From assembly GCF_013315695.1 (NCBI RefSeq), contig NZ_CP054353.1: a stretch of 64,000 nt of DNA. One strand, written 5' to 3'. This stretch comes from Escherichia coli. GTDB taxonomy: Bacteria > Pseudomonadota > Gammaproteobacteria > Enterobacterales > Enterobacteriaceae. Positions 17,501 through 20,500 of the stretch are shown in pieces. Position numbers: made by a program. The stretch's first letter is position 1, and the number at the start of each line of letters is the position of its first letter.

Positions 17501-20500
17501 AGGACGAGTACCTTTACCATCAGACGTTACTTTGATGTGATCCGCATCATCCGAGTTAATCGTGGCATTCCCACCCTCGCGATAAAGCCAGGGTATGGTC
17601 CCTTCGAATTCAGCGGTCGTCCCACTGGCTACCCAGGCGGCATCTTCCGCCATAGCGGCTGGCACGGCACAGTATCCAGCCAGCATCAGTGCCAGCGCGA
17701 CTCTTGTCAGGCCACGTTTCATATGAGGTTTCATAAACACTCTCCTTGGTTAACATTCAGCGGTGGCCCGATCAGCCATGGCGCTGATCCTATTTCTTGC
17801 TGTAATTGACCTGCAAACCGTATCCCTGCACGCCATCGGTTACCTGGGCACTAAACTTCGTTGCCGCTTCCTTGTTCGTTGCCGGGATCTCTATATCGGC
17901 GTTAGTGGTATTGGCTTGCGCACCGGTATTGCCATTCACGCTATGTCCCGTGAATTCCCACTGATAGTCATACTGTTTCATCTCCTCTTCAGTGAGTTTC
18001 TCTGATAGCTGGAACACGCCGTCTTTGTTAGCGTCACGCCACAACACAAAGCGATAGCTGCTATTGAGAGGCAACGGCTCTTTATTGCCGATAAGATTCA
18101 CGGGCTTAGCCGCACCAACACGATAGATAAAGGCATTCAGCCCGCCGATGTCAGAACCCAGGAACGTTACGTCAACATAGTTACTGTCATCATAGGGAGC
18201 GGCTTTCGCCTTCCAACGGAAGGTGCCAGGCAATGTACTGGAGAGCGTAACGGTCCCCTTTTCTTTATCTTGTTTGGCGATAAAGACACAGGGAGTCTCG
18301 GTAGTGCAGGGTTTATTCGCCAGCGTCACTTTTTTATCGTTGGCATCAAACAGCTGCGGGCTGAGATTATCCTGCGGCAAGACATTACCGTTACGGTCAG
18401 TGTTGTCGCCAAAGCTATCGGTAATGTCGAGATCCATGACGACACCATCTACACCATCCGCTTGCGCGCTGGCTTCGTGGCTGTGATTGTTCTCATCCGG
18501 TACATTGGCGATGTTGTTAACGATGAGCTCAATTTTACGATCCTGCTGAACGGTGATTTCCACCACGCCGGAGTTCTGCCGATTGCCTTTTTCATCTTCC
18601 AGCGCCAGCCGTACCCGCCAGGTATTGAGTTTTTCCTGGTCGGCTTTATCAGAGCTGTACTGCCAGGCAGGCAGCACCAGATTCCAGTGATTGTTGTTAC
18701 CTTCAGTAAGCGTATTTTCTTTGATAACCGGCATCACCAGCGTACGTGCAGCATTGTTTTTCGCCTGCCAGGAGGCAGCAACGATTTTGTAGTGATGGTT
18801 AATGAGCGCGTTAATGGTCCATTTACATTTTTCCAGCCCGATAGCGTCTTCAGGCGTATCTTTAATCACGCACTCGGGATGTTCATTCGTGGTGTCTGCT
18901 TTCAGCCACAAAGTGACGTCGAGGGGATCTTTTTCTTTGTATTCCAGAACAATAAAGTTGTTACGTTCAACAAAGTCATGACGGCTGCCCATAAGCGAGT
19001 GAGCCGCGCTCACTTTGTCAGGATCAAGCTGGTCTTTGAGCGGGACGCCAAACTGATAATTAAGCGTTGCGTTAACAGAAAGATCGGTATTATCGCCAGT
19101 GCCAGCTTTGAAATCTGTACCGACAGCAATGAGCGGAACGGGCTGGTATTTCACACCCAGCGTGACAGCGAAGGGATCTTTCTCCAGATTATCAGTGCCA
19201 AAAAGCGCGACTTCATTACCGTAATACTGTTCGAAAACAATTTTACCACCAAGCTGCGGATAAGCGGGAAGCCAGGCTTCGGCGCGAATATCCCAGCCGC
19301 GCGCAGGACGCTCCTCATAAAAATCGAAATCTTCGGAGTCTTTCCAGTCAGAAAGCGGGTGATAATAGTTGCCAGAGAATTTTAAATAATCAGTCCACGC
19401 TTCGGCACCTAAACCTAAACGGCGATGCCCACGGGTAAAATCATAATCATAAAATATATTTCCACCCAACAACCATTTATCAAAATTATGTCTTACACCA
19501 AGCCCAATATTCCCGATCGTACGATCTTCTTTTCGTTGTGCAGAAAATTGGCTGAAATAAACAGTAGTTTGATTATCATACCAGGGAACAAAATAGTCGA
19601 TGGAACTGCCATCCAGATCGCCGCCCTGGCCAAGAGAAAGATTCGTTCGAACCTTACCGTAGGGGGAGAGTGTATCCTCAATATAAGATTGTGTCGTAGA
19701 GGTAATTTGACTTTGCAGATAGCTTCTGGCCTGGGACTCCAGCGCCTCGGGTGTCAGGTTTTCAAACCCTTGCGTAGCGGAGTTAATGACGTAATCGGCA
19801 CCACGCTCTTTTAGCGATTTACCCTTGTTGGTTTGTTCTTCTTGTTGTGCGGCCTGACTACCTAAATCAGGTAATGATTCTTTATGCTCAACATTTATCT
19901 CTGGAGCCGCAAAAGCAGCCCCAGAGATAAATGTTAGCATAATACAGCGTGTCCATCGCAGCATGCACTTTTCCTGTGACAATGATAAAGTCAAAAATGA
20001 TTTTTGATATTATATTCCTGATTATTCAGAAAGGCATGCCAGAAAGGATAAATATATCATTATTTTTTAAATAAGTGATTTTTCCCACTCATATTAGTAA
20101 TTCAACTAATACAAAAATGGCATAATCATCCATATTATAAATATGAATGATAAAATCATATATTTAAATGATATTACACAATAACAAATTCAACGCGTGT
20201 TTTAGAAATTAAACCGTGCCCATATTGGCAGAAATAATCCACCGCACCGCATGCTTTTAATACCTGCAATGGCTGGTGGCAGTCAGGACAAAGAGCCTGA
20301 ATGGTGAAATCTTTGGCACAAGTTGCACAGTGAGCAGTCCCGCCATTGCGTTCGAGAGGGGTTTTGCAGGTTGGACAGTTGAGTGCCATAAATACTCCTC
20401 GCGTGTTATTCGGTTTCCCTCTCCGTGTGGAAAGGGAAACCAGATAAGTGATTACTTACTTTTCTTGATGTGCTTCATCAGACGCTTACGCTTGCGCATC

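What the first reader, a model, noticed from the sequence alone, without database searches (positions are those of the whole stretch)
19965..20173. Extremely AT-rich control region upstream of the sinH-like operon
The ~209 bp between yfgJ and the sinH start are far more AT-rich than the flanking backbone, typical of horizontally acquired promoters bound by H-NS. The gaps sinH-sinI (~55 bp) and sinI-ratA (~110 bp) are short, and only one terminator is evident, after ratA, so the three genes probably form one operon driven from here.
Basis: inference. Interest (0 to 1): 0.4.

Follow-up and report, generated by a model that had tools for sequence, protein, structure and literature searches.

The report
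AT-rich promoter region of sinH
The 209 bases upstream of the E. coli adhesin gene sinH really are extremely AT-rich and most likely hold its normally silent, LeuO-responsive promoter, an ordinary kind of control region, but a conserved terminator after sinI argues against a simple three-gene operon.

Summary
Observation confirmed. Window 19965-20173 is 209 bp at 23.4% GC against 52.5% for the window, the deepest trough present. It lies between yfgJ and sinH, both on the minus strand. The gaps of 55 and 109 bp are correct.

Interpretation partly supported. The region is 97% identical to that of strain SMS-3-5, where published work found sinH (iatB) silent in culture and induced about 15-fold by the H-NS antagonist LeuO. 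No direct H-NS data exist.

Comparison of 17 syntenic loci from four genera shows composition is conserved (GC 0.21-0.31) while sequence mostly is not. Three blocks stand out:
- a -10 hexamer TAnAAT (TATAAT at 20014-20009) with no usable -35;
- a 20-bp upstream box, 32-33 bp before the -10, resembling an RcsB half-site;
- a palindrome resembling the LeuO core site.

The last two are degenerate in this allele.

The operon claim needs correction. A stem-loop with many compensatory changes followed by UUUUCC sits after sinI in every locus examined. So sinH-sinI is the core unit and ratA depends on read-through.

The coding genes are not AT-rich, and the cluster is syntenic across genera. AT-richness here is therefore a regulatory feature, not a mark of foreign origin.

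Ordinary kind of feature; modest interest.

The parts
19965..20173 (-). AT-rich intergenic region between yfgJ and sinH (209 bp, GC 23.4%)
20174..20389 (-). yfgJ (zinc-ribbon protein) CDS, upstream neighbour on the same strand
17790..19964 (-). sinH (iatB), intimin-like inverse autotransporter CDS
19972..19975 (-). Shine-Dalgarno AGGA, 7 nt before the sinH ATG
   Evidence: read from the sequence
20001..20003 (-). Predicted sinH transcription start (inferred: 6-8 nt after the -10), giving a 5' UTR of about 37 nt
   Evidence: inference; not mapped experimentally
20009..20014 (-). Candidate -10 hexamer TATAAT. TAnAAT sits at the homologous place in 13 of 17 loci from four genera (in 11 of them 32-33 bp after the conserved box)
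20032..20037 (-). Position where a -35 would lie (ATGCCT, poor match), so the promoter is probably activator-dependent
20027..20047 (-). Direct repeat CCTTTCTG x2 (13-bp period) around the palindrome GGCATGCC. It is the only GC-containing patch and covers the -35 region. It is only partly conserved between E. coli alleles
20047..20066 (-). Block 1: homologue of the cross-genus box TTTTTAGGAATnTATTTAGG (about -65 to -46 from the predicted start). In this allele it reads AAAATAATGATATATTTATC, with 6 mismatches to the core TTAGGAATNTATTTAGG
20126..20144 (-). Block 0: homologue of the conserved palindrome ATATTCn-N5-TaAATAT, which resembles the LeuO core site. Here it reads ATATTTATAATATGGATGA (10 of 14)
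20138..20166 (-). Short inverted repeat or hairpin just after the yfgJ stop (arms 20166-20159 and 20145-20138). No U-run follows, so it is not a canonical terminator
17735..17789 (-). sinH-sinI gap (55 bp) with hairpin GATCAGC-N6-GCTGATC, no U-run, and the sinI SD GGAGA
16742..17734 (-). sinI CDS
16705..16734 (-). Hairpin 1 after sinI: 12-bp GC-rich stem, GUAU loop, then UUUUCC. Probable leaky intrinsic terminator, conserved with compensatory changes
16663..16701 (-). Hairpin 2, with conserved sequence UUUGCUUAGC...GUUAAGCAAA, followed by conserved GGUUGA. Function unknown. It ends about 30 nt before the ratA start, so it lies inside any ratA mRNA
8557..16632 (-). ratA-like giant adhesion-domain protein CDS (2691 aa)
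8492..8526 (-). Strong intrinsic terminator after the ratA-like gene (AAAGCCUGAUA-N10-UAUCAGGCUUUUUU), overlapping the 3' end of convergent xseA

Best explanation
The 209-bp gap is the cis-regulatory region of sinH, the gene published as iatB in E. coli SMS-3-5.

Proximal half. It carries a sigma-70-type promoter with a perfect -10 (TATAAT, 20014-20009) and no usable -35. The predicted start is near 20002, giving a roughly 37-nt leader with SD AGGA. Such a promoter is intrinsically weak and should need help from bound factors.

Whole tract. At 77% AT and rich in TpA steps, it is a good substrate for H-NS/StpA filaments, which would keep the promoter silent in culture. LeuO relieves this, as shown genetically for the 97% identical SMS-3-5 allele.

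Conserved boxes. In related genera two further boxes are conserved. One is a palindrome like the LeuO core site, about 30 bp after the yfgJ stop. The other is a 20-bp box at about -65 to -46 whose left part matches an RcsB half-site. Both are eroded in this allele.

Transcript. Transcription from here covers sinH and sinI. A conserved, probably leaky terminator after sinI then lowers or gates transcription into the ratA-like gene. That gene has no room for a promoter of its own in the gap.

Status of each step. Shown here: composition, anatomy, conservation and the terminator structures. From the literature: silence in the laboratory, the LeuO effect and sinH-sinI co-transcription. Inferred: H-NS occupancy, the exact transcription start, and the identity of the proteins that bind the two boxes.
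For: - Composition and borders.
- K-12 lacks the whole gap and cluster; there xseA and yfgJ overlap by 4 bp.
- The SMS-3-5 region is 97% identical. In that strain iatB was undetectable at 28, 37 and 42 C in LB or M9. Twelve Tn5 up-mutants all drove leuO, and a LeuO plasmid raised iatB mRNA about 15-fold (PMC6714894).
- In E. coli 78% of LeuO targets are co-regulated by H-NS (PMC6698644).
- In 17 syntenic loci from Escherichia, Citrobacter, Pseudocitrobacter and Superficieibacter the gap is 186-236 bp at GC 0.21-0.31, although its sequence is largely unalignable.
- The conserved box matches in 13 of 17 loci at a level shuffles rarely reach. TAnAAT follows it by 32-33 bp in 11 loci.
- The best PWM promoter hit on the minus strand is this same hexamer.
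- LeuO-like palindrome: the only perfect 7-N5-7 palindrome in the K-12 cas promoter gap has a near-identical twin upstream of leuO, as the paper describes in words. Six of 17 sinH gaps match it at 12 or more of 14 positions, against 0.16 expected, including one perfect 14/14. Nine of the 17 best matches sit at a near-constant position, -176 to -182 from the ATG, and a tenth at -191.
- sinH-sinI co-transcription is stated in PMC12525524.
- Terminators.
Against: - There is no direct H-NS evidence for this locus.
- The published transposon screen found no hns insertions.
- No match to the H-NS high-affinity motif TCGATAAATT at 2 mismatches or fewer lies in the gap.
- AA/TT dinucleotides show no helical phasing.
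- The promoter PWM score (12.1) is within the range of shuffles (mean 11.2, 95th percentile 13.5), and the simple consensus scan found nothing in the gap.
- No -35 is present.
- In this allele the LeuO-like palindrome (10 of 14) and the upstream box (6 mismatches) are weak, yet the LeuO effect was measured on essentially this allele. LeuO may therefore act elsewhere or indirectly.
- The LeuO core sequence was reconstructed from a verbal description, not read from the paper's figure.
- No intrinsic terminator follows yfgJ, so read-through could contribute transcripts.
Confidence: 0.62

Rival explanations
1. The promoter depends on an activator and H-NS has no major role. sinH is silent simply because a promoter without a -35 lacks its activator in culture. 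The AT-rich DNA then serves as factor-binding or UP-like sequence, and LeuO acts as a direct activator or through another regulator.
For: - No -35 is present.
- A conserved box lies at about -65 to -46, where class I activators bind.
- The Tn5 screen gave no hns insertions.
- There is no H-NS high-affinity motif and no phased A-tracts.
Against: - A 209-bp tract at 77% AT with a high TpA density is the composition H-NS binds genome-wide (PMC1550270).
- LeuO mostly acts at H-NS-repressed loci.
- The conserved boxes are eroded in this allele, yet LeuO still induces it.
Confidence: 0.22
2. One reading: one uninterrupted sinH-sinI-ratA operon driven solely from this region, with a single terminator after ratA.
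For: - The gaps are short, 55 and 109 bp.
- No promoter-like site lies in the sinI-ratA gap, and hairpin 2 ends only about 30 nt before the ratA start codon. Any ratA mRNA must therefore begin upstream of the gap.
- A strong terminator follows ratA.
Against: - A 12-bp GC-rich stem-loop with a U-tract directly after sinI is present in all 19 loci examined. Seven of its 10 aligned pairs show compensatory changes (14 loci aligned), and more distant loci have longer U-runs.
- The literature mentions co-transcription only of sinH and sinI.
- A promoter inside sinI was not excluded.
Confidence: 0.3
3. The gap has no promoter of its own, and sinH is transcribed by read-through from der-yfgJ.
For: - No canonical terminator follows yfgJ.
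- yfgJ and sinH are on the same strand.
- The promoter score is not above chance.
Against: - der is an essential housekeeping gene, yet sinH is silent in culture and specifically induced by LeuO.
- The -10 is conserved at fixed spacing across genera.
- AT-rich upstream regions persist where yfgJ is not the neighbour, in L021 and L022.
Confidence: 0.06
4. The AT-richness is a passive junction scar of a recently inserted foreign island and has no regulatory meaning.
For: - The cluster is absent from K-12 and from about 70% of complete E. coli genomes.
- Part of the cluster shows inter-genus transfer.
Against: - The same low GC, similar length and conserved boxes occur in 17 syntenic loci from four genera.
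- The coding genes are not AT-rich.
- No tRNA gene, annotated integrase or flanking repeats were seen in the window.
Confidence: 0.04

Closest known systems
iatB (sinH) regulatory region of E. coli SMS-3-5 (Goh et al. 2019, mSphere, PMC6714894)
   Same: It is the same locus and essentially the same allele. The 209-bp gap is 97% identical and the yfgJ product carries the same RefSeq protein accession. The gene was silent in culture and induced about 15-fold by LeuO.
   Different: That study mapped no promoter, start site or binding site and did not test H-NS. The window has the consensus TATAAT where SMS-3-5 has TACAAT, within a cluster of 6 differences around the -10 and predicted start; a seventh lies further upstream.
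H-NS-silenced, LeuO-activated promoters of E. coli K-12 (cas, bgl, leuO, yjjQ-bglJ)
   Same: An AT-rich upstream tract, silence in culture and activation by LeuO overexpression. In related genera the gap holds a palindrome matching the reconstructed LeuO core site of the cas and leuO promoters.
   Different: H-NS binding is not shown here. The palindrome is weak (10 of 14) in this allele. It lies about 140 bp upstream of the predicted start.
GAD box / RcsB-partner sites (gadA promoter; BglJ-RcsB sites; RcsAB box TaAGaa|tatTCctA)
   Same: The cross-genus box starts with TTAGGAAT. This fits the RcsB half-site and matches 11 of the first 13 bases of the gadA GAD box TTAGGATTTTGTTATTTAAA. It sits upstream of the core promoter, roughly one helical turn closer than the GAD box.
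   Different: The second half-site (TC) is absent. GadE is restricted to E. coli and Shigella, whereas the box is found across genera. The box is degenerate in the window allele. An 8-nt half-site is expected by chance in about a third of such gaps (my estimate), so only its positional conservation carries weight.
fdeC (eaeH), an intimin-like adhesin regulated by H-NS and temperature (Easton et al. 2014, cited in PMC6714894)
   Same: Another E. coli inverse-autotransporter adhesin that is cryptic in culture and under nucleoid-protein control.
   Different: A different locus and sequence. H-NS control is demonstrated for fdeC but only inferred here.
zirTSU and the Salmonella CS54 island (shdA-ratB-ratA-sinI-sinH next to yfgJ)
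   Same: An inverse autotransporter followed by related barrel-less proteins that may be its substrates, at the same chromosomal site between xseA and yfgJ (PMC4943183).
   Different: E. coli has three genes rather than five. No Salmonella sequence was retrieved here, so the boxes were not checked in Salmonella.

Membership tests
H-NS (xenogeneic) silenced promoter region | AT content well above the genome average over 100 bp or more | tested here: met
   GC 0.234 against 0.525; every 50-bp sub-window is 70-80% AT; TpA density in the top 0.3%
H-NS (xenogeneic) silenced promoter region | H-NS occupancy (ChIP, EMSA or footprint) | not testable with these tools
   No data set or paper on this locus was found in 10 literature searches
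H-NS (xenogeneic) silenced promoter region | Derepression in hns or hns stpA mutants | not tested
   The published Tn5 screen of about 30,000 mutants on iatB::lacZ returned only leuO-activating insertions. This is weak negative evidence
H-NS (xenogeneic) silenced promoter region | High-affinity nucleation motif TCGATAAATT | tested here: not met
   No match at 2 mismatches or fewer within 19965-20173. The motif is not obligatory for H-NS binding
H-NS (xenogeneic) silenced promoter region | Counter-silencing by a known antagonist (LeuO) | tested here: met
   From the literature, on the 97% identical allele: about 15-fold induction. Whether LeuO acts directly is unknown
Sigma-70 promoter | -10 hexamer | tested here: met
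   TATAAT at 20014-20009; TAnAAT conserved at fixed spacing across genera
Sigma-70 promoter | -35 hexamer at 16-18 bp, or an extended -10 | tested here: not met
   ATGCCT at 17 bp, and no TG before the -10
Sigma-70 promoter | Mapped transcription start | not testable with these tools
   No transcription-start data were accessible
LeuO-bound site (19-bp palindrome, two 7-bp halves with a 5-bp spacer) | Match to the core palindrome ATATTCA-N5-TGAATAT (reconstructed from the K-12 cas and leuO regions) | tested here: inconclusive
   The window matches 10 of 14 at the homologous place and 11 of 14 over the -10, both within the chance range. Orthologues reach 12-14 of 14 at about -180 in 6 of 17 loci against 0.16 expected
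RcsB / RcsB-partner binding site | RcsB half-site TmrGAAww plus a partner half-site | tested here: not met
   The window reads TAATGATA, with 2 mismatches in the half-site. Orthologues carry TAGGAATT or TAAGAATA, but none has the TC of the second RcsAB half
Single polycistronic operon sinH-sinI-ratA | No internal terminator and no internal promoter | tested here: not met
   A conserved terminator-like hairpin lies after sinI. No promoter-like site is in the gap
Single polycistronic operon sinH-sinI-ratA | Experimental co-transcription | not testable with these tools
   sinH-sinI co-transcription is stated second-hand in PMC12525524. The primary paper (Shea 2022) is not held. Nothing was found on ratA
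Horizontally acquired genomic island | Variable presence within the species | tested here: met
   1633 of 5426 complete E. coli genomes carry it; K-12 lacks it
Horizontally acquired genomic island | Atypical composition of the genes, mobility genes, or a tRNA or repeat-flanked insertion site | tested here: not met
   Gene GC is 0.48-0.555. The window has no tRNA gene. The annotated neighbours include no integrase. The cluster is syntenic in four genera
Horizontally acquired genomic island | Phylogenetic incongruence | tested here: met
   Window 19871-13765 is 89.9% identical to Pseudocitrobacter vendiensis overall, and 90-99% per 150-nt window from about 19500 down to 16500. The der-yfgJ side is 78.5% identical

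The most novel reading that the evidence does not exclude
The gap could be a conserved multi-input counter-silencing module shared by Escherichia, Citrobacter, Pseudocitrobacter and Superficieibacter. It would comprise a LeuO core palindrome near yfgJ, an RcsB-partner box at about -55, and a promoter with a -10 but no -35, all embedded in H-NS-binding DNA. Individual E. coli lineages, including this one and SMS-3-5, would have eroded the two boxes and changed the -10. That would create natural regulatory variants of a vaccine-candidate adhesin. The conserved terminator plus hairpin after sinI would act as a second, RNA-level gate for the giant ratA-like gene.
Probability: 0.3. Interest if true: 0.5.

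Novelty: new member of a known kind. Interest (0 to 1): 0.3.

Why it matters
SinH is a vaccine candidate against extraintestinal E. coli and a fitness factor in urinary infection. It is nevertheless not detectably expressed in culture.

Three results here give concrete targets for experiments on when the antigen is made:
- where its promoter lies;
- which conserved boxes flank the promoter;
- the fact that common alleles differ exactly at those boxes and at the -10.

The conserved terminator after sinI changes how polar mutations and expression of the 2691-aa RatA-like protein should be read.

None of this is a new kind of mechanism.

Tried and rejected
- Rfam scans of 19700-20500 and 16500-17900 at E up to 10 gave only far-sub-threshold chance hits, so there is no known RNA family.
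- Small ORFs in the gap are AT-rich frames without signals.
- No tRNA or tmRNA gene is present in the window.
- The simple consensus promoter scan found nothing in the gap. The PWM scan is not significant on its own.
- The H-NS motif search gave no hit in the gap.
- AA/TT periodicity shows no curvature signal.
- A generic k-mer conservation count was uninformative in AT-rich DNA, because shuffles reach similar counts.
- Sigma-E reading of the box (GGAACTT-like): spacing to a TCTGA is wrong; rejected by eye.
- TTGACT at 19994-19989 as a -35: its -10 would fall on the start codon; rejected.
- The palindrome around the predicted start (19985-20013) is not conserved between alleles.
- Hit H25, at first taken for an empty site, is an IS1 insertion.
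- Literature: the primary paper on the island (Shea 2022), the Salmonella transcription-start compendia and the H-NS ChIP supplements are not held. Searches on sinH with H-NS, and on sivH or the STM locus tags, found nothing on regulation.
- The LeuO motif table is not held, so the core site was reconstructed from K-12 sequence.
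Full report
WHAT IS THERE

The window is E. coli. It is 100% identical over the query to strain MS 21-1, whose RefSeq annotation fixes the borders. All the relevant genes are on the minus strand:
- der;
- yfgJ (20174-20389);
- a 209-bp gap (19965-20173);
- sinH (17790-19964);
- a 55-bp gap;
- sinI (16742-17734);
- a 109-bp gap;
- a 2691-aa ratA-like gene (8557-16632);
- then convergent xseA.

The gap has GC 0.234 against 0.525 for the window. Only 0.16% of 209-bp windows are as low, and the absolute minimum of the window starts at 19981. AT content is 70-80% in every 50-bp sub-window, and TpA steps are in the top 0.3%. As a control, two backbone intergenic regions in the same window are nearly as AT-rich, at 2391-2799 and 1849-2211. 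Extreme AT content is therefore not special to island DNA.

ORIGIN OF THE REGION

K-12 has neither the gap nor the three genes. There xseA and yfgJ overlap by 4 bp, and homology to the window resumes only inside the 3' half of yfgJ. Only 1633 of 5426 complete E. coli genomes carry the region, and most are 80-90% identical to this allele.

The cluster is nevertheless not a typical foreign island:
- sinH, sinI and ratA have GC 0.48, 0.52 and 0.555.
- The window has no tRNA gene, and the annotated neighbours include no integrase.
- A scan of one genome per species found the same yfgJ-gap-sinH-sinI-ratA arrangement in other Escherichia species, E. albertii, Citrobacter, Pseudocitrobacter and Superficieibacter.
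- In all of these the gap is 186-236 bp at GC 0.21-0.31.
- sinH is reported in every complete E. albertii genome examined (PMC11420993).

Low GC is thus a conserved property of this regulatory gap, not a signature of recent acquisition. Horizontal exchange does occur. From about 19500 leftwards the window is 90-99% identical to Pseudocitrobacter vendiensis. The der-yfgJ side is 78.5% identical, and the gap itself cannot be aligned.

ANATOMY OF THE GAP

The sequence of the gap is mostly unalignable between genera, but three blocks survive.

1. The -10 hexamer. A TAnAAT hexamer (TATAAT at 20014-20009) is present at the homologous place in 13 of 17 loci, and in 11 of them it lies 32-33 bp downstream of block 1. 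Under independence the chance probability is about 1e-18. That figure is overstated because the loci are related, but the intervening sequence is not conserved. This hexamer is also the best PWM promoter hit on the minus strand. Its -35 (ATGCCT) is poor, and the total score (12.1) is within what shuffles of this AT-rich DNA give. The simple consensus scan found nothing. The inferred start is near 20002, giving a roughly 37-nt leader with SD AGGA at 19975-19972.

2. Block 1. The consensus is TTTTTAGGAATnTATTTAGG, which ends at about -46. It matches in 13 of 17 loci at levels shuffles rarely reach. Its left part fits the RcsB half-site of the RcsAB box TaAGaa|tatTCctA (PMC3950696). It also shares 11 of 13 bases with the left part of the gadA GAD box, which I verified in K-12. 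The second RcsAB half-site is missing. In the window the box is degenerate, reading AAAATAATGATATATTTATC at 20066-20047, and no match at 3 mismatches or fewer exists anywhere in the window.

3. Block 0. This is a palindrome about 30 bp after the yfgJ stop. Fragel et al. describe the LeuO core site only in words: a 19-bp palindrome of two 7-bp halves and a 5-bp spacer at the cas promoter, with a near-identical copy upstream of leuO (PMC6698644). The K-12 sequences hold exactly one such pair: ATATTCA-TACTG-TGAATAT in the cas gap and ATATTGA-TTTGG-TGAATAT upstream of leuO. Scanning with this pattern gave these results:
- Six of 17 sinH gaps match at 12 or more of 14 positions, against 0.16 expected.
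- Citrobacter MGH106 is a perfect 14 of 14.
- Nine of the 17 best matches sit at -176 to -182 from the ATG, and a tenth at -191.
- The window has only 10 of 14 at the homologous place (20144-20126).

No Rfam family, ORF or tRNA explains any part of the gap. A short inverted repeat after the yfgJ stop has no U-run, so yfgJ lacks a canonical terminator.

LINK TO EXPERIMENT

The gap of SMS-3-5 is 97% identical to the window. There are 7 differences, 6 of them clustered around the -10 and start (TATAAT here, TACAAT there). In that strain, Goh et al. reported the following (PMC6714894):
- IatB (SinH) was undetectable at 28, 37 or 42 C in LB or M9.
- A screen of about 30,000 Tn5 mutants of an iatB::lacZ fusion gave 12 up-mutants, all driving leuO.
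- A LeuO plasmid raised iatB mRNA about 15-fold, without detectable protein.

LeuO is an H-NS antagonist, and 78% of its E. coli targets are H-NS co-regulated. No hns insertion was recovered in the screen. No H-NS motif match lies in the gap. There is no phased curvature.

THE OPERON CLAIM

The gaps are as short as stated.

The sinH-sinI gap has a hairpin without a U-run and a good SD for sinI. A review states that the two genes are co-transcribed.

The sinI-ratA gap holds two very stable stem-loops (MFE -46.3 kcal/mol, z = -6.2).
- Hairpin 1 (16734-16707) is followed by UUUUCC. It is present in all 19 loci examined. In the 14 aligned loci, 7 of its 10 pairs show compensatory changes. Distant loci have longer U-runs.
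- Hairpin 2 (16701-16667) has a conserved sequence and a covarying lower stem, and is followed by conserved GGUUGA.
- The consensus fold is -43.4 kcal/mol, with 12 of 30 pairs compensatory.
- The element is single-copy per genome and is not in Rfam.

Because hairpin 2 ends about 30 nt before the ratA start, there is no room for a ratA promoter in the gap. The ratA mRNA must start upstream of it. It either reads through hairpin 1 or starts inside sinI.

The terminator after ratA is real (8526-8492).

The best reading is a sinH-sinI unit with attenuated read-through into ratA.

VERDICT

This is a member of a well-known class: a cryptic adhesin gene behind an AT-rich, LeuO-responsive and probably H-NS-silenced promoter. 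The LeuO link is already published for this very allele.

What this analysis adds:
- the likely promoter position;
- two boxes conserved across genera, both eroded in this allele;
- the conserved terminator after sinI;
- the point that AT-richness here is regulatory rather than a mark of foreign origin.

Noticed in passing
window 16663-16734 (minus strand), sinI-ratA gap: Two tandem stem-loops are conserved across four genera, with 12 of 30 pairs showing compensatory changes (consensus -43.4 kcal/mol). The first looks like a leaky terminator. The second has an invariant upper stem (UUUGCUUAGC...GUUAAGCAAA) followed by conserved GGUUGA. The element is not in Rfam and is single-copy per genome. 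Its function is unknown.
   Followed up: partly
window about 19500 down to 13765, compared with L012: From inside sinH (about codon 155) through sinI into ratA, the window is 90-99% identical to Pseudocitrobacter vendiensis. The der-yfgJ side is only 78.5% identical and the gap is unalignable. This points to a recent inter-genus replacement with a breakpoint inside sinH. The 91-nt sinI-ratA segment is at least 99% identical in 741 E. coli genomes, whereas the gap allele is at least 95% identical in only 83.
   Followed up: partly
L006 (K-12) 5600-5603; window 8300-8503 and 20184-20389: In K-12, xseA and yfgJ overlap by 4 bp with no gap. The 3' end of xseA and the 5' half of yfgJ are strongly diverged between K-12 and this strain, so the polymorphic segment reaches into both flanking genes.
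   Followed up: partly
L002 about 1733-2500 (strain 200164): An IS1 element sits in the yfgJ-sinH gap about 35 bp after the yfgJ stop, in the opposite orientation to sinH. It leaves the promoter-proximal roughly 180 bp intact. Only 2 of 1633 genomes have the query interrupted.
   Followed up: partly
L010 (Escherichia sp. E1V33), sinI-ratA gap, locus about 4546-4834: The gap is 287 bp instead of about 115. A highly structured insert of roughly 170 bp (MITE- or REP-like) has landed in hairpin 1 and partly duplicates its arms.
   Followed up: no
window 20001-20021, compared with L030 (SMS-3-5): Six of the seven differences between the two gaps are clustered in 17 bp around the -10 and predicted start (GGAATATAATATCAAAAATC against GGGATACAATATTAAAGCTT). 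Each version is shared with other E. coli alleles, which suggests a small recombination patch that changes promoter strength.
   Followed up: partly
window 1849-2211, 2391-2799 and 38719-39018: These are other deep AT troughs (minimum GC 0.244, 0.215 and 0.282). By position the first two correspond to the pdeF-yfgG and yfgG-yfgH intergenic regions of the conserved backbone.
   Followed up: no
window 20412-20441 (der-yfgJ gap): A perfect 9-bp inverted repeat GGTTTCCCT-N12-AGGGAAACC lies between der and yfgJ. No U-run follows it on the coding strand. It was seen by eye only.
   Followed up: no
L007 and L026: Short contigs labelled 'Collinsella sp.' MAG and 'Rhizobium wenxiniae' encode SinH fragments 92% and 99% identical (amino acid) to the window's. 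The first also carries an E. coli-type upstream region. They are probably contamination or mis-binning in those assemblies.
   Followed up: no
window 25146-25164 (hisS-ispG gap): This is the only other match in the window to the reconstructed LeuO core palindrome at 2 mismatches or fewer (TTATTCTCTTTCTGAATAT).
   Followed up: no
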